32,913 nt of DNA from a virus (IMGVR_UViG_3300027510_000010:1-32913), one strand, 5' to 3'. Shown: positions 5,666 to 30,012, counted from the stretch's first letter. The notes: generated by a model from the letters alone, not told the origin. Translations and numbers: made by a program.

Positions 5666-5992
5666 ATGTTGAAAGAGGAGATTATGGCTTGGTTCTCAGC
5701 GGGGCAGGAAGGGCAGGAAAAACCGGAAAGTGTTTCAGGCATAGTGTGTCTGGAAAACTTTCTGAGTTTTCCTACCCTAAATACCCCAAAAGGCACGAAG
5801 GGTATGAACTTTCAGGAGTTCCACAACATTCGAAGTTGGAACCTTTTCCAGAATTTCGTGCCCTTCGTGCCCTTCGTGCCCCAAAAGGCATTTAGGGCAT
5901 ATAGGATCGTAACTTTCCCATATGGGGGGGGTATAGGAAAAGTTACGATCCTATATACCCCAAATACCCCACTCGTGCCAGGGGGGATCTGA
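5666..5992 (+). CDS. Possible ORF running through the origin (FVPFVPFVP is the iteron read-out)
   Basis: Starts 2 nt after the helicase stop and ends in a TGATG overlap with the next gene, but its composition is dictated by DNA repeats. Confidence 0.25.
   Translation: MLKEEIMAWFSAGQEGQEKPESVSGIVCLENFLSFPTLNTPKGTKGMNFQEFHNIRSWNLFQNFVPFVPFVPQKAFRAYRIVTFPYGGGIGKVTILYTPNTPLVPGGI
5702..5980. promoter_or_regulatory. Putative replication origin: convergent 9-bp iterons plus inverted repeats
   Basis: GGGCAGGAA x2 (5702-5719); GGCACGAAGGG (5792-5802); TTCGTGCCC x3 (5855-5881); imperfect 28-bp IR 5775-5802/5870-5897; perfect 18-bp IR 5899-5916/5939-5956; immediately downstream of the helicase. Confidence 0.65.
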
Positions 5993-6198
5993 TGGTTGCT
6001 CTATGCGCTGTGGATCGGAGTTTTGTCCTGGTTGTCGAACGGGCACTTGCTACTGTAAGTGTTACGCCGACCTTCATACCCGACCCGGCCCGACCCCTCA
6101 CTCACTACCATGTCATGGTCGAGGATGACGAGGTCGATCGGGTACGGGCAGCACTTGAGATGGTCGGGACGTTCGTCCCAGAGGAGGTGCGGCCATGA
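5992..6198 (+). CDS. Hypothetical protein
   Basis: Stop/start overlaps at both ends; GAGGAGGTG RBS for the next gene lies within its 3' end. Confidence 0.6.
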   Translation: MVALCAVDRSFVLVVERALATVSVTPTFIPDPARPLTHYHVMVEDDEVDRVRAALEMVGTFVPEEVRP

Positions 6199-6653
6199 CC
6201 GCGAACACCCCCGCCTCCCGCAAGGCCAAGGGGCGGCGACTGCAGCAGGCGGTCCGGCAGGACCTGGTCGACCGCCTCGGTATCGACCCGGGCGACATCC
6301 TGAGCACAGGGATGGGGCAGTCTGGTTGCGACCTCTACCTCTCGCCGGCCGCCCGAACCATCTTCCCCTTCGGCGTCGAGTGCAAAGCGCAGGAAGCGAT
6401 CGCGCTCCCGGCGTGGTGGAAACAATGCACCCGAAACGCCGAGGTGGAGGGGCTCGCCCCCCTCCTCATCCTGAAGCAGAGCCGGCGGGAGCCGCTCGCC
6501 GTGCTCCGGTGGACCGACCTCCTCGCGCTGCTGAGCGAGGTTCGGACACTGCACGAGGCGGCGCTGGAGCAGGTCGCCCCAGACAGGAGGCCGCCCGCGA
6601 CCATCGACCTCAACGGCACCTCGGCGTCGAACCTTGACTGGAGGCGCTCATGA
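6195..6653 (+). CDS. Holliday junction resolvase-like PD-(D/E)XK nuclease
   Basis: RKAKGRRLQQ...GQSGCDLYL...GVECKAQE...W..Q motif series of the phage Hjc-like family. Confidence 0.75.
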   Translation: MTANTPASRKAKGRRLQQAVRQDLVDRLGIDPGDILSTGMGQSGCDLYLSPAARTIFPFGVECKAQEAIALPAWWKQCTRNAEVEGLAPLLILKQSRREPLAVLRWTDLLALLSEVRTLHEAALEQVAPDRRPPATIDLNGTSASNLDWRRS

Positions 6654-6796
6654 CCCCGCCCAAGACCCTCTCGATCTCGGCCGCCCTCCATTCCCGGCTC
6701 TGGCTCCTCAAGATCCGGCGCAAGGCTCGGACCCTTGACGAAGTGATCGAGCAGGCCCTGGACGCCCTCGAAGAGCAGGAGGTCAACAATGGATAG
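6650..6796 (+). CDS. 48-aa ribbon-helix-helix-like DNA-binding protein (not in the ORF track)
   Basis: MTPPKTLSISAALHSRLWLLKIRRKARTLDEVIEQALDALEEQEVNNG; ATGA overlap upstream, overlaps terS start. Confidence 0.6.
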   Translation: MTPPKTLSISAALHSRLWLLKIRRKARTLDEVIEQALDALEEQEVNNG

Positions 6797-7334
6797 GTCT
6801 CCCGGGGGGCAGTGCAAGATCTGCAACCACCCGCAGCGGGTCGAGATCGACAAGGCACTTGTGTCGGGTGAAACACTGCGAAACATAGCGAAACAGTTCG
6901 GGGTGTCATATAGTGCGGTAGGGCGGCACAAGAGAAACGGACACATCGCCGCCCAAATCGCCAAGGTCGCTCGGAAAAAGGAGATAGAGGACGCAAAAGA
7001 GATCCGGAACGCCGTCGAGGAAAAGGAGCAACAAGAGATCGCCGACGTGGCCTCCGTCCTCGACGAGATCATCGGACTCAAGGACCGGCTCAACGATCTC
7101 CTTGACCGAGCGGAGGGGGAGGGGATCAAAGAGGTCTGCATGGTCTCCGGCGAGATCCGGCGCACTCTCGAGCTGATCGCAAAGATCTCCGGTGAGTTAA
7201 AACAGGCCCGGAGCATAACCGTGAATATTACCCAGTCCGCCGAATTTAAACAGGTGGTCGCAATTCTCCTGGAAGAGGTACCTGATGACGTCAAGGAACC
7301 GCTCGCCCGACGACTCTACGAAATTAGCGCTTAG
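6789..7334 (+). CDS. terS: Terminase small subunit (putative)
   Basis: CKIC-HP, HTH LRNIAKQFGVSYSAVGRH, coiled-coil; directly upstream of terL. Confidence 0.7.
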   Translation: MDRSPGGQCKICNHPQRVEIDKALVSGETLRNIAKQFGVSYSAVGRHKRNGHIAAQIAKVARKKEIEDAKEIRNAVEEKEQQEIADVASVLDEIIGLKDRLNDLLDRAEGEGIKEVCMVSGEIRRTLELIAKISGELKQARSITVNITQSAEFKQVVAILLEEVPDDVKEPLARRLYEISA

Positions 7335-8772
7335 AGTAATTGCTGAGCGGCTCTCGCCGTCGACGCCACCCCCTGACCTCTGGGACCGTCTCGGTCTCCG
7401 CCCACAACCCGGGCCGCAGGAAGCCTTTCTGAAGTCGGACGCCGATATAACGATATTCGGCGGAGCGGCCGGGGGCGGTAAGTCCTTCGGCCTCCTCCTC
7501 GCCCCGCTCCAGTGGATCCACGTCCCCGGGTTCGGCGCGGTCATCTTCCGCCGGACCACCACACAGGTCCGGGCCGAGGGCGGCCTCTGGGATGAGAGTC
7601 AGGAGTTATACTCGCGCCTCAACGGCACGCCCCGAGAGCAGCAGCTCGAGTGGCGGTTCCCGTCCGGCGCCGCGGTCTCCTTCGCCCACATGGAATGGGA
7701 GCGGAACCGCTATGACTGGCAGGGCTCGCAGATCTGCCTGATCGGGTTTGACGAGTTGACGCATTTCAGCAAAAAACAATTTTTTTATATGCTCAGCCGT
7801 AACCGGAGCACCTGCGGCGTTAAACCGCGCATCATGGCGACGACTAACCCCGACGCCGACTCATGGGTCGCGGAGTTTATTGAGTGGTGGATCGATCAGG
7901 AGACCGGCTACCCGATCCCTGAGCGCGCCGGCGTCCTCCGCTGGTTCGTCCAGACCGGCGACGAACTCGTATGGGCCGACTCCGCCGAGGATCTCAAGGC
8001 GCGATACCCTGACGCGGTCCCGACGTCAGTCACGTTTATCCCGGCGACACTCGACGACAACCCCGCGCTGACGCAAAAGGACCCTGGGTACCGCGCCCGC
8101 CTCTTGGCGCTGGACCGCGTCGAGCGGGAACGGTTGCTCAACGGCAACTGGAAGATCCGCCCGGTCGCCGGGATGTACTTCCGGCGGGAATGGTTCGAGA
8201 TCGTCGACCAGGCCCCGACCGTCGACATCGCCGTCCGGTACTGGGATTTCGCCGGGTCCCGGCGCACCGCGAAGAACAAAGATCCTGATTGGACGGTCGG
8301 CCTCCTCCTCGGCTACAAGGAGCCATACTTTTACGTCCTCGACGTCGTCCGGCTCCAGGAGAGCCCCGGAACGGTCATGGAGACCGTGGCCGCGACCGCC
8401 GCGATGGATGGTCCCCTCACCCCGATCATCGTCGAGCAGGAGCCCGGCAGCGCCGCGCTCTACCACATCGACAACCTCGTCGACGCCCTGCCCGGGTTTG
8501 CCGTCGTCGGCCGGCCGTCGACCGGCAGCAAGATCCTGCGGGCAAAACCCATCTCCAGCGCCGCCGAGCACGGCAAGGTCATCCTGGTCCGGGGCGAGTG
8601 GATTCGGGCATTTCTTCAGGAGTTGGAGTATTTCCCGGACGGCGCTCACGACGACCAGGTTGACGCGCTCTCCGGCGCTCATGCCTCGCTCGTGGAGCTA
8701 CTCAAGGCGCTCAGGTCGCACGAGGGCGAGGTCGTCATGTATAGCGACGAGGTGAGTATCAGCCCGGTGTAA
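7285..8772 (+). CDS. terL: Terminase large subunit
   Basis: Walker A GGAAGGGKS, Walker B LIGFDELTHF, coupling motif ATTNP, nuclease WDFA...DWTVG...HDDQVDA. Confidence 0.95.
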   Translation: MTSRNRSPDDSTKLALRVIAERLSPSTPPPDLWDRLGLRPQPGPQEAFLKSDADITIFGGAAGGGKSFGLLLAPLQWIHVPGFGAVIFRRTTTQVRAEGGLWDESQELYSRLNGTPREQQLEWRFPSGAAVSFAHMEWERNRYDWQGSQICLIGFDELTHFSKKQFFYMLSRNRSTCGVKPRIMATTNPDADSWVAEFIEWWIDQETGYPIPERAGVLRWFVQTGDELVWADSAEDLKARYPDAVPTSVTFIPATLDDNPALTQKDPGYRARLLALDRVERERLLNGNWKIRPVAGMYFRREWFEIVDQAPTVDIAVRYWDFAGSRRTAKNKDPDWTVGLLLGYKEPYFYVLDVVRLQESPGTVMETVAATAAMDGPLTPIIVEQEPGSAALYHIDNLVDALPGFAVVGRPSTGSKILRAKPISSAAEHGKVILVRGEWIRAFLQELEYFPDGAHDDQVDALSGAHASLVELLKALRSHEGEVVMYSDEVSISPV

Positions 8773-8774
8773 CC

Positions 8775-8835
8775 CCTACTATATAATACCTACGTTTTTA
8801 CAAATTTATAAATTCTTCAACATTTAAGTGCTTAG
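8775..8835 (+). promoter_or_regulatory. AT-rich archaeal-type promoter (putative late promoter)
   Basis: TTTATAAA at 8805-8812 inside the perfect palindrome AATTTATAAATT (8803-8814); only sizeable intergenic gap between 6 and 29.9 kb apart from the tRNA. Confidence 0.65.
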
Positions 8836-8875
8836 AGCGCCAAGACATATCTGTAGCCAAATCGGAGGCTCCGAC

Positions 8876-9184
8876 ATGTCTAGACTGGCAACATTCCTGA
8901 TCACGGTCGTCGACGCCATCCGCGCATTTTTCACCCGCGCATCGCCTCCAGATCCTCTCGCGCCCCCGAGCACCTCGCCCGGCACCGCACCCGGGCCGCG
9001 TCCGATCTCTCCGGCCGTCCGCTCCTTTATCCTCGACGGCCACACCAAGGAGATCCAGGCATCGCTTGTCGAGCAGATCGAGCAGTACGAGGCCGCCGGC
9101 GCAACCTCGTTTACCCTCCGGTATCCGGGCGGCTACTACCTGATCCGCGACGGGCAGGTCGTCGGGTCCGGGAGGGGCGAATGA
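8876..9184 (+). CDS. Hypothetical protein, amphipathic N-terminus and Pro-rich linker
   Basis: GGAGG RBS before ATG 8876; ATGA overlap with the next gene. Confidence 0.7.
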   Translation: MSRLATFLITVVDAIRAFFTRASPPDPLAPPSTSPGTAPGPRPISPAVRSFILDGHTKEIQASLVEQIEQYEAAGATSFTLRYPGGYYLIRDGQVVGSGRGE

Positions 9185-9429
9185 TTGAGGCGCTCCCCCT
9201 CGATCTCCTCTACTCCGTCGCCGCGATCGCCGGGACCGCGATCCTCTCTGCCCTCGCCGGCCGGGCGTGGGGTCGTCGGACCATCGCGGCCGCACACGCG
9301 ACCCGTGCAGCCGTCGACGTCATTTGTGACGCGATCGAGGACGGCACCATCACCGAGGAAGAGGTTCGTGCGATCGTCGCCGCTGGGAACAACTGGCTCG
9401 CAGCAATTAGCCTGGAGACTGGCAAATGA
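9181..9429 (+). CDS. Small membrane protein, holin-like candidate
   Basis: Hydrophobic N-terminal helix LLYSVAAIAGTAILSALAG followed by a basic RR stretch. Confidence 0.55.
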   Translation: MIEALPLDLLYSVAAIAGTAILSALAGRAWGRRTIAAAHATRAAVDVICDAIEDGTITEEEVRAIVAAGNNWLAAISLETGK

Positions 9430-9437
9430 GCAATCTG

Positions 9438-9510
9438 GCCGCCGTGGCGCAACAGGTAGCGCACTCCCCCTGTAAGGGAGCGGTTGCGGGTTCGACCCCC
9501 GCCGACGGCT
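9438..9510 (+). tRNA. tRNA-Thr(UGU), intronless, no encoded CCA, atypical C33
   Basis: Cloverleaf: acceptor GCCGCCG/CGACGGC (one C-A mismatch), D stem GCGC/GCGC, anticodon stem CTCCC/GGGAG with loop CCTGTAA, T stem GCGGG/CCCGC with loop TTCGACC, U73, followed by a T-run. Confidence 0.85.
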
Positions 9511-9526
9511 TTTTCGAGGTGACCGC

Positions 9527-11131: not shown

Positions 11132-11937
11132 CTCCGCTCCGCGACCTCCTCGAAAGCATCGTCACCCTGACGAAGATCTGGAAGCGGGACCAGGCACTCA
11201 AACCTATCGAGACGAAGCTCGCCGGGCAGATGGCGAAGGCGTTCCGGGCGCACCGGGCCGTCTTCATGCGCGAGTTTGAGCGGATCGGCCCGGGGATCCT
11301 CGGCGAGGCCTCTACCCTCCCTGCGATCGAGGGGGCACTCGAAGTAGCCTACCAGGCGACACTCGCCGATTTCCTCGCCCCGATCGAGGAGGCTGCCGGG
11401 GCCGCGGCCGCCGCCGCCGCGAAGCACCGGGTGGCGGAGTTCGGGGTCAGCTTTGCGTTTGACCTCAAAAACCCCCGAGCGATCGCCGCCATCAAAGCAC
11501 AGGCGGCCGCGTCCGTCGAGGAGATCGACGCGACCACCCGGGACGACCTCACCCGTATCCTGACGCAAGGGATGGAGGAGGGCTACAACTACCAGCAGGT
11601 AGCCCGGGCGATCGCGGCGAAGTACGACGAGTATGCAGTCCCGGTCACCCGACCCCGGCACATCCGCAACCGGGCGGAACTGATCGCGGTCACTGAAGCG
11701 GCCGAGGCGTACGAGACCGGGAACCGCCTGGTCATCGACGAGATGACGGCCGTCGGCCTGGAGATGGAAAAACGCTGGTCCGACGTCGGCGACGAGCGAG
11801 TCTCGGTCGGGTGCCGGGCAAACTCGCAGGCGGGGTGGATCCCGGTCGACCAGCCGTTTCCGTCCGGCCACCAGCACCCCCCCAGGTTCCCGGGGTGCCG
11901 GTGCGCCACCCTGTACCGCCGGAGGCCGGCAACATGA
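11128..11937 (+). CDS. Minor head morphogenesis protein (SPP1 gp7 / Mu gpF-like)
   Basis: RAELIAVTE...KRWSDVGDERV...C...HPPRFPGCRC motif, located after the portal. Confidence 0.85.
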   Translation: MTPLRDLLESIVTLTKIWKRDQALKPIETKLAGQMAKAFRAHRAVFMREFERIGPGILGEASTLPAIEGALEVAYQATLADFLAPIEEAAGAAAAAAAKHRVAEFGVSFAFDLKNPRAIAAIKAQAAASVEEIDATTRDDLTRILTQGMEEGYNYQQVARAIAAKYDEYAVPVTRPRHIRNRAELIAVTEAAEAYETGNRLVIDEMTAVGLEMEKRWSDVGDERVSVGCRANSQAGWIPVDQPFPSGHQHPPRFPGCRCATLYRRRPAT

Positions 11938-13025
11938 ACGGAGTGATGGAAAGTGTGACAAACGACATGAAAGAGTTTGTAGCGGACGTCGTCCCGCTCA
12001 TCGAAGCAAAGACCGACGACAATGGCACGATCCCCATCAAGATCATCGACCCTGGGTGGGGCTCATCGGGCTACTACTCCCGCGAGGTCCTGCAGCAGGC
12101 GGTCAACGCCCGAGTCTACGCGGCCGGGACCCAGATGTTCTGGAACCACCCGAGCAAAACCGATGAAAAGGACCGGCCGGAACGCGACCTCCGCGACCTC
12201 GCCGGCGTCCTGACCGAGGACGCCTGGTGGGACGAGCGCGGGCCAAAAGGCCCCGGAGTCTATGCCCGGGCGAAGGTGTTTTCCCCCTACCGCGACGCCG
12301 TCGCCGAGATGGGACCGTACATCGGGCTCTCCCACTACGTGTGGGGCGAGAGCAAGCCGGGCGAGGCGGAGGGGAAGAAGGGTGACATCATCACCCGGAT
12401 CGTCGCCGCCCGCTCGGTCGATTTCGTGACCGTGCCCGGCCGGGGCGGGGCGATCGCGGAGGCGTTCCGGGCCGCCCGGCCCCCAGAACCGACAGATGAA
12501 CAAAAAACCGAAGCAGGAATCCAAATGGTAGGAGAGAAACCCGAAAAACTGACGCTCGAATCCATCCGCAAGGAGCACCCTGAGATCATCGAGGCGCTCC
12601 GGCAGGAGTTCGAGAACGACAGCGCCCGCAAGGAGGCGCAGGCACGGCAGGAGAAGAAACTCGCCGAGACCGAGAAGGCCCTCGAAGAGGCGAAGGCGGA
12701 GAACGCCCGGCTCAAGGAGGCACTGCTCCTCGTCGAGGCGCGGACGTTTGTTGAGGCGAAGGTCAAGGCGTCAACGCTGCCGGAGATCTCGAAGACGCGG
12801 GTTGCCGAGGCGCTCGCGAAGGACCCGGTCGTCAAGGACGGTAAGATCGACGAGACGGCCTACGCCGCGAAGATCGAGGCCGCAATCAAGAGCGAGGCCG
12901 AGTATCTCGCGAATCTCGGCGCCGGTAAGGTCTCCGGGATGGGCGCGGGCGCTCCGACCGAGATGACGCTCGAAGAGGCGGAAAAGGCGTTTGCAGAGCG
13001 AATCAAAGTATTTGGAGGATACTGA
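11934..13025 (+). CDS. Prohead protease fused to C-terminal scaffold
   Basis: IKIIDPGWGSSGYY, MFWNHP, IGLSH, SVDFVTVPGRGG protease domain followed by an acidic coiled-coil; ATGA overlap at 11934. Confidence 0.8.
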   Translation: MNGVMESVTNDMKEFVADVVPLIEAKTDDNGTIPIKIIDPGWGSSGYYSREVLQQAVNARVYAAGTQMFWNHPSKTDEKDRPERDLRDLAGVLTEDAWWDERGPKGPGVYARAKVFSPYRDAVAEMGPYIGLSHYVWGESKPGEAEGKKGDIITRIVAARSVDFVTVPGRGGAIAEAFRAARPPEPTDEQKTEAGIQMVGEKPEKLTLESIRKEHPEIIEALRQEFENDSARKEAQARQEKKLAETEKALEEAKAENARLKEALLLVEARTFVEAKVKASTLPEISKTRVAEALAKDPVVKDGKIDETAYAAKIEAAIKSEAEYLANLGAGKVSGMGAGAPTEMTLEEAEKAFAERIKVFGGY

Positions 13026-13027
13026 GC

Positions 13028-16487: not shown

Positions 16488-16489
16488 GC

Positions 16490-21428: not shown

Positions 21429-21430
21429 AT

Positions 21431-21778: not shown

Positions 21779-24700
21779 ATGGGATTACCTGACCTCTATC
21801 CGGCCCAGGTCGGATCTCCGTACACTACCCTTGCCGCGCCGTATACAACCGGTGAGGCTACGATGACCGTCGTGGATGCGACGAAACTCCCCGACGCCCC
21901 GAACATCGTCTGCCTTGCAGGAGCGGTTGCCGGCGAGTTCCGGTACTCCGGGAAAGATGGTAACATCCTGCAGGGAGTGACCGCGCTGCCAGGCACTCCG
22001 GCGGCGACTACCTGGCCCGCCGGGACGTTTGCATTCCGCGGGATCTCCGCATACGACCATGCCTCGATAGTCGAGCATCTCACATACCAGCGCTCCCATA
22101 TAGTCGAGGCATCCCTGGACCTTACCACCAACCACACGTATTCCGGCAGAGTCCTCGAAGGGGCCGAGGCGGGCGAGAATCTGGCATTCGGGGATCTCGC
22201 GGTGCTCGCGGAGAGCGGTAAGTTCGTGAAAGCCAATCCCGCCACCCTCGCCACCCTCGACGGCACTATCGCCCTGGTGGTCTCCGACACGATTGCCGCC
22301 GGCAGTCAGGGGATGTTCCTGCTTCGGGGTCTGATCCGAAATGACAGTTGGACGTTCTCGCCGGGCAAGGAACTCTATGCCGGCAGCGGGACGCTGACCC
22401 ATGAACCCCCGACGACCGGGACACAAATCATCCGGAAGGTCGGGACGGCGCTCACCGCGACGATCATCGAGTTCAACCCTTCATCAACCCTCCATGCTGA
22501 ATATCTGGTATCGGTTCTGCCGGTAAACACGATCAGCAAGGACAACGGTGATGTCGAGCGGAAGTTCTGGAAGGATGATTTCAGCGTTGATTCGTTGGGT
22601 GGTTATGAAGTCATAGATGGTTCCGTTGAGTATGTCACAGATCATATTAAAGTCTACAACAATACTTACTTCTACCCTATAAAATTCAAAAATAGTGCTG
22701 GATATGGTGTTAGGGCTCATATCAAACAGCCCGGTGTATCTGGGACTATGGTTAATGGGTTTAATCAGATACAATTCATGTTTGGAGGGGATATACCTTC
22801 ACAATTTCCCGTATCTGAGGATTATACTAAAAGGATTGGAGTCGCGCTGTATAATGGTGGTCCAGACACAGATTCATTATATATGGGGATTGTAACACTT
22901 AATTCACCTGTGATATGGACACGAATTAAACAGTTCCCATCATCACAAGATTACTTTGATAGTCTTGCCGCGGGTTATACGTTAGAAGTGTCCATTGATA
23001 AGAATGGATATATGATAATATCTATTCCGGAATATGGATACACCTGGACCACGAGTGCACCTGTCAAATTATCAGAAATGTCAACATTCCGTATCTTAAC
23101 ATACAACCTTAAAACACCAATCGAAATTTACAGACTTTCAGTTACTCCATCCATCTCTTACGCCGATGATTTCACCACCGATACCTCCGAGCGGTATCAG
23201 GCAGTCACCGGAACAGTTGCCTATGACGATGCCAACAAACGGATGAACGTCACCACAGCGACAGGAGCGAATGGGAAAGCATCCGGCAGGTTGAAGTCCT
23301 ACAAGTTCTGTGAAGGCGCACAACAATTTGATGTAACGCTCCCTGTCGGTGCAGACGGGGATTTCATCTGCATGGTCACTCACGCTACCGATCCTGCAAT
23401 GACCAACGGTATCGGAGTAGGTCTGCAATCCGATGGAGCAGGGAACTGGAACCTCGTAACCTTATCTGGAACTACGGTTACGGAAGGTGTCGATTCTGGA
23501 TTAGATGATGGTGATGTCGCAAGAATCGAGATAGAGAAGGATGACAAAGGGTGCTACTGGTATTACATATACGATGCTTCCGGCGTTAAACCAACAACAC
23601 CTACTGGGAAACTCTTCACCACGTTATCAGAGGGTTACACCGGATGGTATGCTAACGGTAACAGCAAGACCTATGCGATAGACAATATCTCCATTCGCGC
23701 TGAATCCATCGTGGGACGGACGAATGTCGAGGTGACTGAACCGTTCTGGCTCAGGGATGAGTTTAGTGAGGATTCACTTGGACGGTGGTTAGGTCCAAAG
23801 ACATCCGTTACAATATCCGATGGTAAACTCTTGTGGGGCAATTCAAGCACATATATGTATTTCCCTCTTGCTAGATTCAAAGAACAAACCATTTCATTCA
23901 CTTGGACACCCACATCTGCATCTGAGGAATCGGGAAGATATCGCATTGCTGTCGGGTTTTGCGAGGCGTATCCTAAGACAGAGTTGTTTTCCGACTCTGG
24001 TAACAAGTATATCCTATACTTCATAGCAGATACATCATCATTGGCTCTATACAAAAATGGGGTATCATATAAGACAAATTATGGGTTAACTGGTATTACT
24101 CTTGGTGGAACTTATAATATTACGATCACCAAATCCGGTGGGACATTTAATATTACAGTAAATGATAAAACGTTCTCGTTCATTGATGATTCTGGAACAC
24201 CGATTATCGAATCATCGTATGTAGCATTGATGTGTCCGAATGTAGGAACAATACCACATGAGATCACAAACCTCGAAATCTCCGGCACCCGAGTCTACAA
24301 CAAACCCATCCACCGAGGAGCAATGCTTGAGACATATCACGATGGGACACAGGAGATTACCGGAACCCAACTCGTGTATGATTTCCAATGGGATCGTCGT
24401 GATGAAGTTACAGCATTACTTGGAACTTATACATGGGACGTAACCAATGGACGCTTAGTGATTACTTCCGGACCATCAGATTTTACATTAATGAAATTCA
24501 ATGGGTTGAAATTCGGAGATCAATATGCTGAAATTACCATGACCATTGGAACTAATGTTGGAAGCACATTGTATTATGTATTTAATTGGGATGGTGAAAT
24601 CTCAGGTAATGGTCCACGTAATTGTTATATTATACTCGTTACCACATCTACATTCCAAATCAGAAGAGTGGAGAATGGCACATCAACAACGATTACTTCA

Positions 24701-25303
24701 GTTGCATCTGGATTGACTGCTGGAGATATGTTTACTATAAGGATGTTAAAAGTTGGAACAACTATTCAGGCAATGCTATATGATGCAAATGGCATTTTAA
24801 AACAAACCATATCAGCAACCGATTCAACATATTCAACTGGATATAGTGGATTACATGCATATGCCATTAATCAATATATTCACAAAGTTTTGATCATTGG
24901 CAAGGAACTACATTCCTCGAACGGCATTGCTGCCTGCATCCCGCCGATAGGGGGCGGGGCGAGATATGGGGTAGAAGAGTCCGTCTACATCCCCATCACC
25001 CCCGGCACCGAGATCCCGGTCGGATCTGTTGTCATCAGTCCGAACGCAAAATCCACGGTAGTCGGGACAGCCCTGACCACCTTCGCACAGACACCCGCCG
25101 GGGTCTCGGCCTCACTCGAGTATGCGACCGGCACAAAGACTTGCCCGGGTCTGTCGGCTGCCTTCGCTCCGACAGGGAGACATCGGGTCAAGGCCGACCG
25201 CAACACCCTGACGAACATCGGGGTCAAAGGATCTGCGGCTGGCACCAGTCCGGCGGTCTACATCGACAGTCTCCATGTCCGGAAGCAGGAGGTGGTAGCA
25301 TGA
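21779..25303 (+). CDS. Large tail fibre/adhesin with four tandem beta-sandwich-like modules
   Basis: 1174 aa; N-terminal AQVGSPYTTLAAP tail-anchor-like segment; modules start with D(D/E)F motifs (KDDFSVDS, ADDFTTDT, RDEFSEDS, YDFQWDR); AT-rich cores. Confidence 0.75.
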   Translation: MGLPDLYPAQVGSPYTTLAAPYTTGEATMTVVDATKLPDAPNIVCLAGAVAGEFRYSGKDGNILQGVTALPGTPAATTWPAGTFAFRGISAYDHASIVEHLTYQRSHIVEASLDLTTNHTYSGRVLEGAEAGENLAFGDLAVLAESGKFVKANPATLATLDGTIALVVSDTIAAGSQGMFLLRGLIRNDSWTFSPGKELYAGSGTLTHEPPTTGTQIIRKVGTALTATIIEFNPSSTLHAEYLVSVLPVNTISKDNGDVERKFWKDDFSVDSLGGYEVIDGSVEYVTDHIKVYNNTYFYPIKFKNSAGYGVRAHIKQPGVSGTMVNGFNQIQFMFGGDIPSQFPVSEDYTKRIGVALYNGGPDTDSLYMGIVTLNSPVIWTRIKQFPSSQDYFDSLAAGYTLEVSIDKNGYMIISIPEYGYTWTTSAPVKLSEMSTFRILTYNLKTPIEIYRLSVTPSISYADDFTTDTSERYQAVTGTVAYDDANKRMNVTTATGANGKASGRLKSYKFCEGAQQFDVTLPVGADGDFICMVTHATDPAMTNGIGVGLQSDGAGNWNLVTLSGTTVTEGVDSGLDDGDVARIEIEKDDKGCYWYYIYDASGVKPTTPTGKLFTTLSEGYTGWYANGNSKTYAIDNISIRAESIVGRTNVEVTEPFWLRDEFSEDSLGRWLGPKTSVTISDGKLLWGNSSTYMYFPLARFKEQTISFTWTPTSASEESGRYRIAVGFCEAYPKTELFSDSGNKYILYFIADTSSLALYKNGVSYKTNYGLTGITLGGTYNITITKSGGTFNITVNDKTFSFIDDSGTPIIESSYVALMCPNVGTIPHEITNLEISGTRVYNKPIHRGAMLETYHDGTQEITGTQLVYDFQWDRRDEVTALLGTYTWDVTNGRLVITSGPSDFTLMKFNGLKFGDQYAEITMTIGTNVGSTLYYVFNWDGEISGNGPRNCYIILVTTSTFQIRRVENGTSTTITSVASGLTAGDMFTIRMLKVGTTIQAMLYDANGILKQTISATDSTYSTGYSGLHAYAINQYIHKVLIIGKELHSSNGIAACIPPIGGGARYGVEESVYIPITPGTEIPVGSVVISPNAKSTVVGTALTTFAQTPAGVSASLEYATGTKTCPGLSAAFAPTGRHRVKADRNTLTNIGVKGSAAGTSPAVYIDSLHVRKQEVVA

Positions 25304-25899
25304 GCCGCCTACTCCGTGGCCCGGTGCCGGCAGAGTTCCCCTGCTCGGTGATAGAGGTCTATGACGACGATACCGGCATCGTGGAGGTGCCGGACATCTT
25401 CACCCGCCAGATTCAGACTGGCGTGGTTGAGGACGACGACGGGATCGAGATCCCGACCTACGATCTTGAGGTGTTCGAGCCGGATCTGTCTGCCTACGAG
25501 GAAGTCACCTGGGCTGAGGTCAAGACCCTGATCCACTTCGACTTCAAGATCCGCAACACCCTCTACACCTTCCGTAACACCCCGGGGGCCACGCATGCCG
25601 GCATTGAGGATGAGGTTATCTGCATCCGAGACTATCCGGCCTTCATCTATCACACGGTCGATCAGGGCGCTGCCATTGAGCATATAGGCCACTATCGCCG
25701 GCTCCGGCACCCCACTGTCCCGCCGCTCAAACTATCGGGCGATACGTTCTATGTGGGCGGCCCGGAGGACTATGATGATACTCCGTTCCAGGACGCCACT
25801 GACCCATCAATCTCGCTGACGTTGGCCGACATTGAACTCTGGAAGGATGGGGTATATGTGAAGAACTATGCCCGTCCCCGGCCTGTGGATGAGGTATGA
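25300..25899 (+). CDS. Hypothetical protein (tail-tip region)
   Basis: ATGA overlap with the adhesin stop; GGAGGTGG RBS. Confidence 0.7.
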   Translation: MSRLLRGPVPAEFPCSVIEVYDDDTGIVEVPDIFTRQIQTGVVEDDDGIEIPTYDLEVFEPDLSAYEEVTWAEVKTLIHFDFKIRNTLYTFRNTPGATHAGIEDEVICIRDYPAFIYHTVDQGAAIEHIGHYRRLRHPTVPPLKLSGDTFYVGGPEDYDDTPFQDATDPSISLTLADIELWKDGVYVKNYARPRPVDEV

Positions 25900-26126
25900 G
25901 GCGGTTTACCTTCTCCCCCTTTTCCTGCCCCGGCACCCGGCAGACTCGACACGGGGTTATTGAAGGGGCAGAGGGAACCATTGTCGCGACGCGGGAACCT
26001 CTCGTCGCCGCGGACCGGTTGGCAGCGATCGCCGGGCTTGGAGGTTATCTTGCCGGGCGGTCGTATGCGGTACCGGACGTCTCCGGCGGCGTTTCAGTGA
26101 TGTTCAAGGAGGTGTACCCCATATGA
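25896..26126 (+). CDS. Small tail-region protein, single copy of a ~70-aa unit (MRRF...SC.GT.Q.R)
   Basis: ATGA overlaps at both ends; paralogous to 26526-26951. Confidence 0.6.
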   Translation: MRRFTFSPFSCPGTRQTRHGVIEGAEGTIVATREPLVAADRLAAIAGLGGYLAGRSYAVPDVSGGVSVMFKEVYPI

Positions 26127-26455
26127 CCGATATTCAATTCAAGCGCGGCTCGACGTTGCCTGTCTACCAGATCACGCTCTACCGCCCGGACAGCCCTACG
26201 ACCCCGCTCCCCCTCGCCGGCGCCGAGGTGCGCCTGGTCGCAAAATCCCGGCTCACGGGGGAGATCGTGATCGACCGATCTCTAGAGATCCTCGATCCGA
26301 CCGCCGGCCTCTGCCAGTTCACCCGGGAGGCCGATGAGTACCACGGAGGCGAGACCTGCCAGGCAGAGATCATCGTGACGTTCGGCAACGGTGCCGTCCT
26401 GATCCTGCCGACGACCGGCTACTACTCCCTCATCATTGAGGACTCGCTGGCATGA
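26123..26455 (+). CDS. BppU-N-like baseplate/Ig-like domain protein
   Basis: IQFKRGSTLP...L....PLPLAGAEVRL...G.C.F...G....AEI.VTF.NG....LPT.GY. Confidence 0.65.
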   Translation: MTDIQFKRGSTLPVYQITLYRPDSPTTPLPLAGAEVRLVAKSRLTGEIVIDRSLEILDPTAGLCQFTREADEYHGGETCQAEIIVTFGNGAVLILPTTGYYSLIIEDSLA

Positions 26456-26529
26456 CCGACATTGAACTCCGGAAGGATGGGGCATATGTTAAGAACTATG
26501 CCCGTCCCCGGCCTGAGGAGGAAGTATGA
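26452..26529 (+). pseudogene. 25-aa remnant ORF (MTDIELRKDGAYVKNYARPRPEEEV), a duplicated C-terminus of the 25300-25899 gene
   Basis: Lies in repeat A; ATGA overlaps at both ends, so translational coupling is preserved. Confidence 0.55.
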
Positions 26530-26951
26530 GGCGGTTTACCATCTCCCCCTTTTCCTGCCTCGGTACCCGGCAATCTCGTGTCGTCGAGGTTGCAGGCGAG
26601 AGTGCTACTGTTGACGCCACTCGCTCGTTTGCAGCGGCACCCCGGACCGTCGCAGTAGAGATCCCCTTGGAGGTCTGGCTGGATGCACATGCATACCTGG
26701 GCACCGCTCCGTCGTACCTGGTTCCTGGGATGCGGCGATTCGGGCTGTCCCGGTTTTCCTGCCCCGGCACCCTCCAGTCTCGACACATGGCTGTTGAGGG
26801 GGCAGAGGCAACCATTGCCGCGACGCGGGATCCTCTCGTCGCTGCGGACCGGTTGGCAGCGATCGCCGGGCTTGGAGGTTATCTTGCCGGGCGGTCGTAT
26901 GCGGTACCGGACGTCTCCGGCGGCGTCAACATAACGTTCGAGGAGATATAG
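26526..26951 (+). CDS. Tail-region protein with two tandem copies of the ~70-aa MRRF unit
   Basis: MRRFTISPFSCLGTRQSR... and MRRFGLSRFSCPGTLQSR... Confidence 0.6.
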   Translation: MRRFTISPFSCLGTRQSRVVEVAGESATVDATRSFAAAPRTVAVEIPLEVWLDAHAYLGTAPSYLVPGMRRFGLSRFSCPGTLQSRHMAVEGAEATIAATRDPLVAADRLAAIAGLGGYLAGRSYAVPDVSGGVNITFEEI

Positions 26952-28388
26952 ATGGCCGTCGATATCGAAATCCAGCAAGCCGGGACGTGGCCGACCTACC
27001 GACTGACCCTGACCCGGTCCGGGCACCCGCTCCCGCTCGCCGGAGCGACCGCCCACCTGATCGCGATCCACGCGCAGTACCCAGTCTGGGAGATCCGGAA
27101 ACAGATGGAGGTCGAGAACCCGTTGGGCGTCCTGGTCTGCCGGTTCGCGGCCGAGGACACTGTCCATCCCGGCACCTACAACGTCACGATCCGAATCCTC
27201 TGGGGCGACGGGTCGGCCGATACTCTGCCGGTCGCCGGATCGTACCAGATGGTGATCGGCCCCGGGCTGGTTGCCCCCGATACTCCGCCAGAGCCCCTCC
27301 GGGTCTACGAGCGGTCCGGCGGCGTGTTGACGCTGCTCGGGGTGATCGATGCGTATGAGGCGATTGAATGGACCCGGCGGTGGCGCTCTCCCGGAGAATG
27401 GCAGGCCGTCATCAACCGGTATGCCACCGGGGCGGAGTATCTGAAAGAAGGCCGGTTCGTCTCGCTCCCCCGACGCGGTCAGCACCTGGTCGGCCGGATC
27501 GAGAGTATCGAGGGCCAACAGACGGAAGAAGGGGAGATCAGTGAGAACTGGACGGTCCGCGGGCGGGAGGCGGGCGTCATCCTACAAGACCGGATCTGCC
27601 TGCATGGAGTCTCGTCCGGGACCGGGTATGACGAGCAGAAAAATGTTGTCGGGGAGACGGCCATGCGGCATTACGTCGACGTCAACGCGGTCAACCCGAC
27701 CGATCCCGATCGGGCGATCCCTGGGTTGGTGTTGGCTCCGGTCGACCAGGGTCGAGGATCGTTAGTCACGGTCTCCGCCCGGTTCCAGGCGCTCCCGGAC
27801 CTCCTGGAGCAGATCGCTCTCCAGTCCGGGCTCGGGTGGGAGATCGGCTACGACTTCTCCGGGCAGCAGTTCGTCTTCACCGTGTTGGATGGGGTAGATC
27901 GGAGCGCCGAGGTCCTCCTCTCCCCGCGACTCGGCAACTGCCTGGTCTCCGGGTACCGGGCCTGCCTCTCGGACGCCCCGACCCTGGCGGTCGTGGCCGG
28001 GCAGGGGGAAGCCGCCGACCGGGAGATCGTGGAGGTCGGGACCGCGACCGGGTGGGACCGGCGCGAGGTCTTTGTAGACGCCCGGGACCTGGACGCGACC
28101 GACGCCCTGATCGCCCGCGGGGATGAGAAACTCGCGGAAGTTGGGGAGACGACAACCCTGGAAGTCGAGTATATCCCGACCCCGACGTATCGCTACATGA
28201 CGGACTTTGACCTCGGCGATATCGTGAGCGCCGAGTACCCGGGCATCTGCTCGATGCAGGCCCGGATCGTTGCGGTGACCGAACAGTATCCATCCGGGCG
28301 GATTGTGCTCGGACTTGGGAAAGAGTGGCCGGACCTGATCAGTCTGGTCCGGGCGATGCGGAAAGAGAACGCGGAGATGAGACGATGA
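26952..28388 (+). CDS. BppU-N-like domain fused to a siphovirus Gp37/Tal-like minor tail protein
   Basis: N-terminus paralogous to 26123-26455; then YE.IEWTRRW..PGEW, V.GQGE..DR, WDRREVFVDARD, DFDLGDIV. Confidence 0.75.
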   Translation: MAVDIEIQQAGTWPTYRLTLTRSGHPLPLAGATAHLIAIHAQYPVWEIRKQMEVENPLGVLVCRFAAEDTVHPGTYNVTIRILWGDGSADTLPVAGSYQMVIGPGLVAPDTPPEPLRVYERSGGVLTLLGVIDAYEAIEWTRRWRSPGEWQAVINRYATGAEYLKEGRFVSLPRRGQHLVGRIESIEGQQTEEGEISENWTVRGREAGVILQDRICLHGVSSGTGYDEQKNVVGETAMRHYVDVNAVNPTDPDRAIPGLVLAPVDQGRGSLVTVSARFQALPDLLEQIALQSGLGWEIGYDFSGQQFVFTVLDGVDRSAEVLLSPRLGNCLVSGYRACLSDAPTLAVVAGQGEAADREIVEVGTATGWDRREVFVDARDLDATDALIARGDEKLAEVGETTTLEVEYIPTPTYRYMTDFDLGDIVSAEYPGICSMQARIVAVTEQYPSGRIVLGLGKEWPDLISLVRAMRKENAEMRR

Positions 28389-29548
28389 CACTGAATTACG
28401 GGATTTTCGATGTGAGCGACCCGCAGAACCCCGACAGGGTGTATTCGGCGGCGCTCCTGAGCAGGATTCTGAGCAAGCATATCCGGGACGGGATCGTCCA
28501 CGGCGACGGCGGCGAGTTGGCCGTCACGGTGACGGACCCGCCGGCGATGACCGTCAAGGTGGCAACCGGGACCGCGATGGTGCAAGGCCGATTTTGCGAG
28601 AATGATGCGGCGCTGACGCTGTCGGTGCCGGCGGCTCACGCGACCTATCCCCGGATCGACCGGGTGGTGGTGCGGCTGAACGCCTCGCCCGGCCGGACGA
28701 TCGATATCCTGGTTAAGAAAGGGACTCCGGCACCGTCCCCGGTCCCGCCGGGCCTGACCCGGACCCCGGAGACCTGGGAGTTGTCGCTCGCGCAAATCTT
28801 CGTCGCGGCTGGCGCGACGATGGTCCAGGCCGCGAATATCACCGACGAGCGCAGGGACGCGACCCTGTGCGGCTGGGCGTGTGCGACCTACCTCCCGTCC
28901 TCGCAACTGGAGATCACCGGGCCGGTCAATATGCAGGGGAACGCGCTGACCGGGCTGCCGGCGCCGAGCGCAGGGACGGACGCCGCCCCGAAATCCTACG
29001 TGGATGCGACGCTCCCGAAACTGTCGCAGATCGCGATCGACGCGGACAAGGACTGGGGCGGGAAGAATATCACGAACGTTGGGGTGATCCGAACCTCGGA
29101 CGTCACCTGCGTGGGGAACACCAACATCCTCTTTCTCAGTACGCCATCGAACACGGTCCAGGCGAGTTCTACAAATGTATTGGAGGGGAACATTTCGGAA
29201 TGGCAGACAGTAGCGAAATTTTTGATGCCGTCTAATGTTCTTCGGGGCGGGATTCGCATTAAAGCCCAAGTCAAAGAGACGTTCGTTCTGGGTTCCTATT
29301 CCTCTCTAAAAACCCAAATATTCGTGGATGGGGTAAATGTTGGAGGATTTGTTATTACTGGTACAGGTTGGCAAGAGGCGAGTAAAGACATATATGATGA
29401 TGGTATGTGGGGGTCGATCGTTGAAATCAAGGCCATGTCTGATCAAGACAAGACGAACAAGGAATGTGGTATTCGGAATTGCAGAATTTGTGCCACGTTT
29501 TCCCGTCTTCCGACGTCGGAGACGCCTGTAACCCAGACGTTGGTGTGA
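28385..29548 (+). CDS. Baseplate/tail-fibre protein with an AT-rich C-terminal domain
   Basis: DRVYSA...DG...M.V.V..G.A.VQG...PRIDRVVVRLN...WELSLA.I...ITDER...CG; DA..KSYVD fibre motif. Confidence 0.75.
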   Translation: MTLNYGIFDVSDPQNPDRVYSAALLSRILSKHIRDGIVHGDGGELAVTVTDPPAMTVKVATGTAMVQGRFCENDAALTLSVPAAHATYPRIDRVVVRLNASPGRTIDILVKKGTPAPSPVPPGLTRTPETWELSLAQIFVAAGATMVQAANITDERRDATLCGWACATYLPSSQLEITGPVNMQGNALTGLPAPSAGTDAAPKSYVDATLPKLSQIAIDADKDWGGKNITNVGVIRTSDVTCVGNTNILFLSTPSNTVQASSTNVLEGNISEWQTVAKFLMPSNVLRGGIRIKAQVKETFVLGSYSSLKTQIFVDGVNVGGFVITGTGWQEASKDIYDDGMWGSIVEIKAMSDQDKTNKECGIRNCRICATFSRLPTSETPVTQTLV

Positions 29549-29563
29549 GATCCATTTTCTCTC

Positions 29564-29908
29564 ATGACCTACTCCCAATCATCTTTCTGGACCCCGGCGC
29601 GCATCGCCGCGGTGATCGGGGCCATCCTGCTCGTCGTGGCGCTCGCATACCTGGCAAGCCTGCCGCAGAACCAGTTCCAGCCGGCCGACCTGCTGGAGCC
29701 GAAATACGCCGCCGACGCGGATCTCGGCTACTGGATGGTCGACAAGTACGATCCGGAGGTCGACGTCTATCACCTGCTCGTGGTGATGCAGCACGACAAC
29801 GGCACGTTCGAGTGGTTGGACGGCGACGGGATCTGGTTACCCCGGCGCGCCGTCGAGGGGACGTTTACCGTGATCGGATCGTTCGACGCCCGGAAAGCGC
29901 ACCTCTGA
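29564..29908 (+). CDS. Membrane-anchored hypothetical protein
   Basis: N-terminal TM helix IAAVIGAILLVVALAYLA. Confidence 0.7.
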   Translation: MTYSQSSFWTPARIAAVIGAILLVVALAYLASLPQNQFQPADLLEPKYAADADLGYWMVDKYDPEVDVYHLLVVMQHDNGTFEWLDGDGIWLPRRAVEGTFTVIGSFDARKAHL

Positions 29909-29922
29909 TCCGGCGAGGGCAG

Positions 29923-30012
29923 TTAGGGTATCTAGGATCGTAACTTTTTAAGATCTCTCTCTCATGTGGAAAGTTACGATCTCTCGTGCCCTATGTGCCT
30001 CGTTCTGCCCTT
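29923..30012. promoter_or_regulatory. Second copy of the origin-type inverted repeat plus degenerate iterons
   Basis: GATCGTAACTTT (29936-29947) / AAAGTTACGATC (29970-29981); 29923-29947 matches 5892-5916 at 23/25; TCGTGCCC and TTCTGCCC follow. Confidence 0.7.

What the first reader, a model, noticed from the sequence alone, without database searches (positions are those of the whole stretch)
5892..30012. Two cognate inverted-repeat/iteron sites, 24 kb apart, bracket the whole virion module: possible bipartite origin or recombination pair
Seen: site 1 has arms ATATAGGATCGTAACTTT / AAAGTTACGATCCTATAT (5899-5916, 5939-5956). Site 2 has GATCGTAACTTT / AAAGTTACGATC (29936-29947, 29970-29981). Both spacers are exactly 22 nt but unrelated in sequence. 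The left flanks match at 23/25, and both sites carry TCGTGCC iteron-like units nearby. Both are in the same orientation, and each arm contains GATC. Established: phage P4 needs two separated iteron-bearing cis sites (ori1 and crr), both bound by its alpha primase-helicase, which belongs to the same helicase family as 3595-5664. Inference: (a) a P4-like ori+crr system in an archaeal virus; (b) the helicase or ParB protein binds site 2 to control the early promoter directly downstream; or (c) a direct-repeat recombination pair able to separate the early/replication unit from the 24-kb morphogenesis block, leaving a plasmid- or satellite-like circle. GATC methylation by a viral MTase could gate binding.
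Basis: partly seen in the sequence, partly recalled or inferred. Interest (0 to 1): 0.8.

Follow-up and report, generated by a model that had tools for sequence, protein, structure and literature searches.

The report
Duplicated origin-like module in methanogen virus
A Blf4-like virus of methane-producing archaea carries two copies, in opposite orientation, of a roughly 100-bp protein-binding DNA module: one inside the likely replication origin just after its primase-helicase gene, the other just before its early promoter, which suggests a link between replication and early gene control but not a proven two-part origin.

Summary
The two palindromes are real and far beyond chance. The exact 12-mer GATCGTAACTTT occurs only four times in the window, as two inverted pairs, each with a 22-nt spacer.

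The window is an 89%-complete relative of Methanoculleus virus Blf4, and Blf4 has both sites.

- The spacers are related. Read as reverse complements they share the plan CCCAYRTG, a purine tract, then TATAGGA or ATCTTAA.
- Judged by the spacer, site 2 is inverted relative to site 1.
- GATC is three-fold over-represented across the whole window, so its presence in the arms is not special.

Each site is a module of about 100 bp: three or four 9-bp-phased GGGCA/TGCCC pentamer units on each side, pointing inward, around an AT-richer palindromic centre.

Site 1 ends a roughly 330-bp iteron block just downstream of a P4-family primase-helicase. That protein has a predicted RFX-type winged-helix C-terminus. 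In one complete relative a Prim-Pol replicase replaces the helicase, and a different iteron set replaces the block. I therefore read the block as an initiator-plus-origin cassette.

Site 2 abuts the early promoter. It is missing from two complete relatives that keep the helicase and site 1, so an obligatory P4-style ori+crr pair is unlikely.

About 75 site instances showed no recombinant junction.

My best reading is an origin plus an auxiliary initiator or regulator site at the early promoter. Which protein binds is not established.

The parts
3595..5664 (+). P4-family primase-helicase (D5_N plus SF3 helicase core) with a C-terminal RFX-type winged-helix domain. This is the candidate initiator.
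   Evidence: Pfam D5_N 5.7e-33, DUF5906, Pox_D5 and RFX_DNA_binding at aa 599-651. NCBIfam TIGR01613 scores 268 bits against a cutoff of 108.7. A model of aa 571-689 matches the RFX DNA-binding domains 8zjr_M and 1dp7_P with target TM 0.72-0.73.
5665..5991 (.). Iteron block, the candidate replication origin. GGGCA/TGCCC-type pentamer units lie at 9-bp spacing in alternating orientation: GGGCAGGAA x2 at 5701-5720 and TTCGTGCCC x3 at 5855-5881. Site 1 sits at its 3' end.
   Evidence: Unit density is 27.5 per kb against 5.1 per kb window-wide, the highest in the window, with spacings of 9, 9, 9, 8, 9, 9, 11. The block is conserved in 10 helicase-anchored relatives. It is replaced by different iterons where the replicase differs.
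5886..5980 (.). Site 1 module: units GGCA, GGGCA, GGATC, then the core, then GATCC, TACCC, TACCC, GTGCC.
   Evidence: A 33-nt inverted repeat, 88% complementary (I1). The ssDNA hairpin energy is -21 to -27 kcal/mol, z -5.9 to -8.5.
5905..5950 (+). Site 1 core: arm GATCGTAACTTT (5905-5916), oriented spacer CCCATATG-G8-TATAGGA (5917-5938), arm AAAGTTACGATC (5939-5950).
29564..29908 (+). Last gene of the late arc (114 aa). Its stop lies 27 nt before site 2.
   Evidence: Conserved at 83-94% in relatives and used as the anchor for site 2.
29917..30010 (.). Site 2 module: units GGGCA, GGGTA, GGATC, then the core, then GATCT, GTGCC, GTGCC, CTGCC.
   Evidence: I11. Units lie at 8-10 bp spacing. Hairpin energy is about -16 kcal/mol, z about -6.
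29936..29981 (-). Site 2 core: the same arms, with a spacer that on the minus strand reads CCACATG-(AG)4-ATCTTAA. It is an inverted copy of the site 1 core. On the plus strand it places a T5 run (AACTTTTTAAG) right after the late genes.
30017..30070 (+). Early promoter cassette: a TATA-like TTATTTATAC, then AGGTG as the ribosome-binding site, then ATG at 30071. A second copy lies at 30479-30515.
   Evidence: 37-nt direct repeat D17, 92% identical. These are the strongest AT-rich blocks outside the tail-fibre gene. The same cassette occurs in relatives with and without site 2. The promoter assignment is by eye.
30952..31218 (+). Small protein with a ribbon-helix-helix-like C-terminus (KLQVYVSQEV, then two helices). 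The real start is probably near 31040, behind its own TATA-like element at 31018-31031. It is the rival candidate binder of the arms.
   Evidence: The motif was read by eye. There is no Pfam or NCBIfam hit. Co-occurrence with site 2 is shown.
5992..6653 (+). First genes after site 1: a 68-aa ORF and a PDDEXK/RusA-like resolvase. TerS-like (6789-7334) and TerL (7285-8772) follow.
   Evidence: Pfam PDDEXK_15 and PHROG 244. Terminase_6N and Terminase_6C.

Best explanation
The two sites are copies, in opposite orientation, of one protein-binding module of about 100 bp that belongs to the virus's replication origin. The module has three or four pentamer iterons (GGGCA on one side, TGCCC on the other, 9-bp phase) that point inward. 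They flank a 38-bp AT-richer centre made of the GTAACTTT/AAAGTTAC palindrome and an asymmetric spacer containing a purine tract.

Site 1 is the 3' end of the roughly 330-bp iteron block immediately downstream of the P4-family primase-helicase gene. By analogy with SaPI Rep, P4 alpha and pRN1 ORF904, this is where the helicase would load itself through its C-terminal winged-helix domain (inferred).

Site 2 is a second, dispensable copy between the last late gene and the early promoter. The same protein or proteins bound there would sit about 10 bp from the TATA-like element of the promoter that heads the co-directional early arc, and the helicase gene lies in that arc. The most likely role is therefore feedback control of early and replication-gene transcription by the initiator, perhaps together with the small RHH-like protein. 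A possible secondary role is as an auxiliary initiator-binding site. In the orientation found, site 2 also places a T5 run directly after the late genes, which could help terminate late transcription.

Shown: the anatomy, its conservation, and the swap of iterons together with the replicase.
Inferred: who binds, and every functional consequence.
For: - Both sites share arms, spacer plan and phased flanking units.
- Both are conserved in Blf4, at 36024-36069 and 24050-24094, and in G008. Sites of both kinds also occur in many viral and metagenome contigs.
- The site 1 block always follows the helicase gene in 10 relatives.
- In the complete genome G007, a 949-aa Prim-Pol protein replaces the helicase. 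The syntenic block there carries about 10 ACTCATAA 9-bp iterons and no GTAAC core anywhere.
- G003, whose helicase is 53% identical, has GTGCAC iterons flanking an AT-rich stretch.
- The helicase belongs to the P4 family and has an RFX-type winged-helix C-terminus.
- Literature: the SaPI ori lies downstream of pri-rep, with opposed penta- or hexamer iterons around an AT-rich region bound by the Rep C-terminal winged helix (bioRxiv 10.64898/2026.10.17.759575). The pRN1 ori is a stem-loop 54 bp after orf904, and an RHH repressor acts at the operon promoter (PMC4234260).
- The distance from the site 2 core to the TATA-like element is 41-50 nt in most variants.
Against: - No binding or replication data exist for any virus of this group.
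- In the mosaic genome G008 the ori units are largely GTGTCC, while site 2 keeps GTGCC units. The units at the two sites therefore do not clearly co-vary with the helicase.
- The palindrome is better kept at site 2 than at site 1. At site 1 one arm is lost in L012, L015, L017, L023 and G008. This fits a regulator centred on site 2.
- Site 2 mostly co-occurs with the RHH-like gene, and G001 and G002 lack both.
- GC skew gives no clean origin signal.
- An open frame runs through the site 1 block in all relatives.
Confidence: 0.5

Rival explanations
1. The sites are operators of a dedicated transcription regulator. The small RHH-like early protein (30952-31218), or another early-module regulator, binds the GATCGTAACTTT arms at both places. 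It would control the early promoter at site 2 and either origin firing or read-through into the packaging genes at site 1, as ORF56 does for the pRN1 replication operon.
For: - The RHH-like protein with the strand KLQVYVSQ[ED]V is found wherever site 2 and enough downstream DNA are available: window, Blf4, G008, L008, L009, L134, L175, L192, L193.
- G001 and G002 lack both site 2 and this gene.
- G007 has only a 32%-identical relative with a different strand and no cores.
- In G008 the arms at site 2 are kept with an 86%-identical RHH, although the helicase is only about 60% identical and site 1 has lost one arm.
- The pRN1 precedent.
Against: - L189 has site 2 but no room for the gene at the syntenic place. 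L147 has an unrelated RHH-like ORF there yet the same arms.
- The association is confounded by close kinship.
- No family model recognises the protein.
- Arm centres 34 bp apart are unusual for RHH operators (own knowledge).
- No convincing conserved promoter follows site 1. The TATATA there is lost in L017, L023 and L159.
- This reading does not explain the phased iterons shared with the rest of the ori block.
Confidence: 0.25
2. This is a true bipartite replication system like P4 ori plus crr, or two working origins. Both sites must be bound by the helicase for replication to start.
For: - The helicase belongs to the same family as P4 alpha.
- Both sites have the complete mini-origin plan of opposed iterons around an AT-richer palindromic centre, 55% and 66% A+T against 38% for the genome.
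- Both can extrude long hairpins.
Against: - G001 is rated 100% complete and its helicase is 92% identical. G002 has direct terminal repeats, is rated 100% complete, and its helicase is 64% identical. Both keep site 1 but have no second copy anywhere, even allowing one mismatch in a 10-mer.
- G003 and G007 also have a single iteron cluster.
- The second site is therefore dispensable in this virus group.
Confidence: 0.12
3. The sites act as structures rather than protein sites. They would form hairpins or cruciforms serving as a terminator of the late operon, as single-strand priming signals on opposite strands, or as a packaging (pac) signal.
For: - Strong predicted ssDNA hairpins.
- A T5 run on the coding strand at site 2 in all variants.
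- The opposite orientation would put the purine-rich loop on opposite strands, as with ssiA and ssiB of RSF1010 (abstract of PMC8567376).
Against: - The arms show no compensatory changes. They decay one at a time: TATCG... opposite ...CGATC, GTAATTTT opposite AAAGTTAC, or a whole arm lost.
- Sequence, not just pairing, is conserved between the two sites.
- G007 keeps TerS and TerL homologues (44% and 78% identical) but has no core, which argues against a pac role.
- There are no Rfam matches at the sites.
Confidence: 0.08
4. The sites are a recombination pair. Exchange between the two cores would invert or excise one arc of the genome.
For: Spacer types have moved between the two sites during evolution (L159, L177), and one site 1 spacer is flipped (L013 against L119). 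A 3.66-kb circular-looking contig (L015) carries the helicase plus the ori block.
Against: - Among about 75 distinct site instances, all fully classifiable ones are either helicase side-core-resolvase side (15) or promoter-core-late gene (35). None is a hybrid.
- The L015 circle is not joined at the cores.
- No recombinase was seen among the window ORFs that were scanned, though not all ORFs were scanned.
- Contigs drop rare isomers, so low-frequency events are not excluded.
Confidence: 0.04

Closest known systems
SaPI pri-rep-ori modules (self-loading SF3 Rep/PriRep helicases)
   Same: The ori is a roughly 300-bp non-coding block directly downstream of the primase-helicase gene. It has short penta- or hexamer iterons in opposed orientation around an AT-richer centre, and the C-terminal winged helix is the iteron reader.
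   Different: This is an archaeal tailed virus with a 9-bp phase and several alternating arrays. Its palindromic centre is only mildly AT-rich. It has a second, inverted copy of the inner module about 12 kb upstream at the early promoter. No biochemistry exists.
Phage P4 alpha protein with ori1 and crr
   Same: The helicase belongs to the same primase-helicase family (TIGR01613). Two separated cis sites share the same repeats and lie on either side of the replication genes. The P4 facts come from my own knowledge and were not checked in the library.
   Different: The second site is absent from complete relatives that keep the helicase and ori, so it is not a conserved requirement. The N-terminal 242 aa has no recognisable DnaG/Toprim domain. 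Each site here is a palindromic module rather than a direct iteron array.
Plasmid pRN1 (orf56/orf904 operon plus downstream stem-loop ori)
   Same: There is an archaeal SF3 primase-helicase with a winged helix. The origin lies downstream of its gene and contains a stem-loop. [quoted passage not shown]
   Different: In pRN1 the stem-loop structure, not its sequence, is conserved, and no iterons were found. Here sequence and iterons are conserved but pairing is not. The RHH gene here is not the first gene of the operon and is not recognised by any family model.
Iteron plasmids and P1 (incC/incA); SV40 T-antigen sites I/II
   Same: Extra initiator-binding repeats outside the origin, or overlapping the initiator's promoter, give autoregulation or copy control. 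SV40 uses GAGGC pentamers in inverted pairs bound by an SF3 helicase. This comes from my own knowledge.
   Different: The initiator families and hosts are different. In the known systems the repeats are close to the origin or promoter, whereas here the two modules are 12 kb and 24 kb apart on the circle and inverted.

Membership tests
Origin next to a self-loading P4/D5-type SF3 primase-helicase (SaPI Rep, P4 alpha, pRN1 ORF904 type) | The initiator has a P4-family SF3 helicase core. | tested here: met
   TIGR01613 scores 268 bits against a cutoff of 108.7. D5_N 5.7e-33 and DUF5906 also match.
Origin next to a self-loading P4/D5-type SF3 primase-helicase (SaPI Rep, P4 alpha, pRN1 ORF904 type) | The initiator has a C-terminal winged-helix DNA-binding domain. 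| tested here: met
   A single-sequence model of aa 571-689 has pLDDT 79-90 over the domain. Its best PDB matches are the RFX DNA-binding domains, with target TM 0.72-0.73 and probability 1.0. This is a predicted fold only.
Origin next to a self-loading P4/D5-type SF3 primase-helicase (SaPI Rep, P4 alpha, pRN1 ORF904 type) | A block of about 300 bp directly downstream of the initiator gene carries short iterons in opposed orientation around an AT-richer centre. | tested here: met
   One frame stays open through the block, but variation is equal at the three codon positions, 0.44/0.51/0.44.
Origin next to a self-loading P4/D5-type SF3 primase-helicase (SaPI Rep, P4 alpha, pRN1 ORF904 type) | The iterons change when the initiator changes. 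| tested here: met
   G007 pairs a Prim-Pol replicase with ACTCATAA iterons. G003, with a 53%-identical helicase, has GTGCAC iterons. The sample is small.
Origin next to a self-loading P4/D5-type SF3 primase-helicase (SaPI Rep, P4 alpha, pRN1 ORF904 type) | The initiator binds the iterons and the block supports replication. | not testable with these tools
   Needs EMSA or footprinting, marker-frequency analysis, or a mini-replicon.
P4-type bipartite ori + crr | A second site with the same repeats is kept wherever the initiator and ori are kept, because it is required in cis. | tested here: not met
   G001 and G002 are rated complete and have the helicase and site 1, but no second copy. Not filed as a member.
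P4-type bipartite ori + crr | Both sites are bound by the initiator. | not testable with these tools
   Only the shared phased units at both sites are shown.
RHH (CopG/ORF56-type) repressor with operator | A ribbon-helix-helix protein is encoded. | tested here: inconclusive
   A strand-helix-helix motif was read by eye at aa 31-75 of 30952-31218. There is no Pfam, PHROG or NCBIfam match.
RHH (CopG/ORF56-type) repressor with operator | The protein and the operator co-occur and co-vary. | tested here: inconclusive
   They co-occur in at least 9 contigs and are jointly absent in G001 and G002. L189 (no gene) and L147 (a different RHH-like ORF) keep the same arms.
Invertible or excisable segment with a recombination-site pair | Alternative junctions (hybrid flanks) exist. 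| tested here: not met
   0 hybrids against 15 and 35 parental arrangements. Assemblies may hide rare isomers.
Structured hairpin element (terminator or single-strand initiation site) | Pairing is preserved by compensatory changes. | tested here: not met
   Arm variants break pairs without compensation, and whole arms are lost singly.

The most novel reading that the evidence does not exclude
An archaeal tailed virus couples replication to its early/late programme through one initiator. The primase-helicase would load at the origin module behind its own gene. It would also occupy an inverted second copy of that module at the early promoter, 12 kb away. That second copy would act at once as autorepressor site, late-operon terminator and distant auxiliary origin element. 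This would be a P4- or SV40-like logic not yet described for archaeal Caudoviricetes.
Probability: 0.25. Interest if true: 0.65.

Novelty: new variant of a known kind. Interest (0 to 1): 0.45.

Why it matters
To my knowledge (not checked in the library), replication origins and early-gene control have not been mapped for methanogen tailed viruses such as Blf4. This work gives a precise, conserved candidate origin. It also gives a second cognate site that can be tested directly with an existing virus-host pair, Blf4 and Methanoculleus bourgensis E02.3. If the helicase binds both sites, it would extend the self-loading SF3 helicase origin model (SaPI, P4, pRN1) to archaeal Caudoviricetes. It would also show how replication and transcription are linked there. 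If it does not, the sites still mark a virus-specific regulator-operator pair. The practical stakes are modest, limited to basic virology of biogas methanogens.

Tried and rejected
- **GC skew**: overall positive with a local dip at 6-11 kb and no clean origin/terminus pattern. Not used.
- **Bacterial promoter/terminator scan**: found nothing. The models do not apply to archaea.
- **Rfam**: nothing at either site.
- **Genome-contig scan for the palindrome**: 26 hits, all in unrelated bacteria and none in archaea. These are chance matches, with no sign of a host copy or provirus.
- **Viral-contig scan for GTGCAC 9-bp iterons**: 76 mostly unrelated contigs, and only the two known G006 loci from this family. 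It could not show whether G006's site-2-position iterons match its missing ori.
- **RHH as sole binder**: the association is real but has counter-examples and is confounded by kinship.
- **Hybrid-junction search**: none found.
- **pac-site idea:** G007 keeps the terminase genes but has no core.
- **PDB sequence search with the helicase C-terminus**: no meaningful hit. The fold search was needed.
- **Coding reading of the frame across site 1**: the frame is open in all relatives but shows no third-position excess.
- **Resemblance of the arm core GTAAC to the RFX half-site GYAAC, and of GGAAAGTTA to the start of some early promoters:** noted by eye only and given no weight.

Full report
**What the window is.** The window is a whole IMG/VR virus record: linear, 89% complete by CheckV. 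Its closest isolate is Methanoculleus virus Blf4 (MZ171369, 37,078 bp, Pungoviridae/Flagovirus, lytic on M. bourgensis). TerL is 94% identical and the helicase 91%. All large ORFs are on the + strand.

The arc from about 30.0 kb through the window ends to 5.66 kb holds early and replication genes:
- a ParB-N-like protein, zinc-ribbon ORFs and an RHH-like protein;
- two N6/N4 methyltransferases;
- a 689-aa primase-helicase.

The arc from 5.99 to 29.9 kb holds a resolvase, TerS, TerL, a tRNA and the portal-to-tail genes. The Blf4 paper reports a circular assembly with no detectable termini and does not discuss origins or promoters (PMC8540584).

**The observation.**
- GATCGTAACTTT occurs four times, only there. 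0 of 100 shuffles reach the match count seen at up to 2 mismatches.
- The inverted repeats extend to about 30-33 nt (I1 and I11).
- Both can fold as ssDNA hairpins of -16 to -27 kcal/mol, z about -6 to -8.5.
- GATC is over-represented three-fold across the window (354 copies), while CTAG (11) and AGCT (27) are avoided. GATC in the arms therefore carries little weight.

**Finer anatomy.** Each core is flanked by pentamer units at 8-11 bp (mostly 9 bp) spacing that point inward.
- Site 1: GGCA, GGGCA, GGATC, core, GATCC, TACCC, TACCC, GTGCC.
- Site 2: GGGCA, GGGTA, GGATC, core, GATCT, GTGCC, GTGCC, CTGCC.

The 38-bp centre between the GGATC units is 55% A+T at site 1 and 66% at site 2, against 38% for the genome.

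Site 1 is only the last part of a roughly 330-bp block (5665-5991) filled with the same units in alternating orientation. These include GGGCAGGAA x2 and TTCGTGCCC x3, plus a TACCC-TACCC/GGCAC-GGGTA palindrome and a further AAAGT-type palindrome. Unit density there is the highest in the window.

**Relatives.**
- Blf4 has both sites: 36024-36069 with a 22-nt spacer, and 24050-24094 with a 21-nt spacer and one arm base changed.
- Anchoring on the helicase gave 10 relatives in which the whole block follows the helicase stop.
- Anchoring on the last late gene gave 13 loci, 8 of them with site 2.
- A pattern scan of metagenome contigs added about 60 more instances.

Oriented by the spacer, every classifiable instance has one of two flank arrangements: helicase side then resolvase side (15), or early promoter then late-gene end (35). 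There are no hybrids.

The spacers form one family: CCCAYRTG, then an 8-nt purine tract (G8, AAGGAGGA or AGAGAGAG), then TATAGGA, TATAGTA, ATCTAAA or ATCTTAA.
- Site-1 spacers match reverse-complemented site-2 spacers about twice as well as they match them directly.
- L159 has a site-2-type spacer at site 1, and L177 a site-1-type spacer at site 2. L013's site-1 spacer is flipped relative to L119.

Site 2 is therefore an inverted copy of the site 1 core, and spacer types have been exchanged between the sites during evolution.

**Evidence that the site 1 block is an origin cassette.**
- The helicase is a P4-family primase-helicase (TIGR01613, 268 bits).
- Its last 90 or so residues model as an RFX-type winged helix. 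This is the domain that reads iterons in P4 alpha and SaPI Rep.
- In the complete, syntenic genome G007 a 949-aa Prim-Pol protein replaces the helicase. The block between it and the resolvase gene then carries about ten ACTCATAA units at 9-bp spacing. No GTAAC core exists anywhere in that genome.
- G003, whose helicase is 53% identical, has GTGCAC pairs flanking an AT-rich stretch.
- This joint replacement of replicase and adjacent repeats is the classic signature of an initiator-origin module. It matches the SaPI and pRN1 layouts.

**What site 2 is not.**
- It is not a conserved partner of the origin. G001 (helicase 92% identical, rated complete) and G002 (64%, terminal repeats, rated complete) keep site 1 but have no second copy. 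G003 and G007 also have one cluster each.
- It is not a structural hairpin kept by pairing. Arms vary without compensation and are lost singly.
- It is not tied to the terminase.
- No host-genome copy was found.

**What site 2 probably does.** Its inner unit array ends about 10 bp upstream of the TATA-like element of a strongly conserved early promoter cassette. The core-to-TATA distance is 41-50 nt in most variants. The same cassette works without site 2 elsewhere, for example after TerL in G002 and at 30479 in the window.

A protein array on site 2 would therefore modulate, not create, the early promoter. Because the units are those of the origin block, the initiator is the simplest candidate. 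That would give autoregulation of the co-directional early arc that includes the helicase gene.

The rival candidate is the small RHH-like protein. It accompanies site 2 in at least 9 contigs and is absent, like site 2, from G001 and G002. However, L189 lacks it and L147 has a different one with unchanged arms. In the mosaic genome G008, site 2 and the RHH gene are Blf4-like, while the helicase (about 60% identical) and the ori units (largely GTGTCC) have diverged. This slightly favours the regulator reading for the arms. The two readings are not exclusive: pRN1 uses both an RHH at the promoter and the helicase at a downstream ori.

**Verdict.**
- The spacers are related and the cores are inverted relative to each other.
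- Site 1 is part of a well-supported candidate origin.
- Site 2 is an accessory inverted copy at the early promoter.
- An obligatory P4-like bipartite origin and an excision pair are both unlikely.
- The binder and the function remain inferences that the Blf4 system could test.

Noticed in passing
window 5609-5992 (frame of 5666-5992): One + frame stays free of stops through the whole iteron block in all 11 relatives. Block lengths differ by multiples of 3 (295, 298, 331 nt). The frame ends in a TGATG overlap with the next gene. Even so, variable columns are equal at the three codon positions (0.44/0.51/0.44), so it does not behave like a protein under purifying selection. The 9-bp (3-codon) unit phase may explain this.
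   Followed up: partly
L015 (IMGVR_UViG_3300025708_000230), whole 3684 nt: The contig has a 26-nt terminal direct overlap, so it reads as a 3.66-kb circle carrying only the helicase, the iteron block (left arm only), the resolvase and a short methyltransferase. It may be a mini-replicon or an assembly collapse between methyltransferase paralogues. The junction is not at the cores.
   Followed up: partly
L068/L069 (G006) about 130-165 nt after the last late gene; L022 (G003) 11480-11700: At the site 2 position G006 has four tandem GGTGCACTA units (9-bp period) instead of the GTAAC core. GTGCAC units are also the ori repeats of the distant helicase relative G003. G006's own helicase and ori part is missing from the contig, so co-variation of the two sites could not be tested.
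   Followed up: partly
L055:4196-6844 (G001) and L019: The helicase of G001 and L019 is 883 aa. It carries an in-frame insertion with an HNH_3 endonuclease domain (aa 169-209) in the N-terminal part.
   Followed up: partly
window 30017-30053 and 30479-30515: There is a 37-nt promoter-like cassette in two copies, 92% identical, each followed by AGGTG and a start codon. They bracket the ParB-N-like gene. The same cassette follows TerL in G002.
   Followed up: partly
window 9438-9510: A tRNA gene (Rfam RF00005, 58 bits) lies between an AT-rich promoter-like block (8777-8817) and the portal gene.
   Followed up: no
window 22000-25000: G+C drops to 40-51% inside the 1174-aa tail-fibre-like ORF (21779-25303), against about 63% elsewhere.
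   Followed up: no
whole window: Tetranucleotide bias: GATC 354 (about 115 expected), CTAG 11, AGCT 27.
   Followed up: no
L065 (G001), L071 (G007), L072: directly after the last late gene: Relatives without site 2 have a GC-rich hairpin (CCCGGCAAATTTGCCGGG) there. A short reverse-strand ORF follows whose end reads like an AbrB/SpoVT-type motif (by eye only). This may be an alternative regulator at the same position.
   Followed up: no
window 25823-26116 vs 26453-26950: There are two direct repeats of 171 and 224 nt (80-85% identical) within the tail-tip gene region.
   Followed up: no
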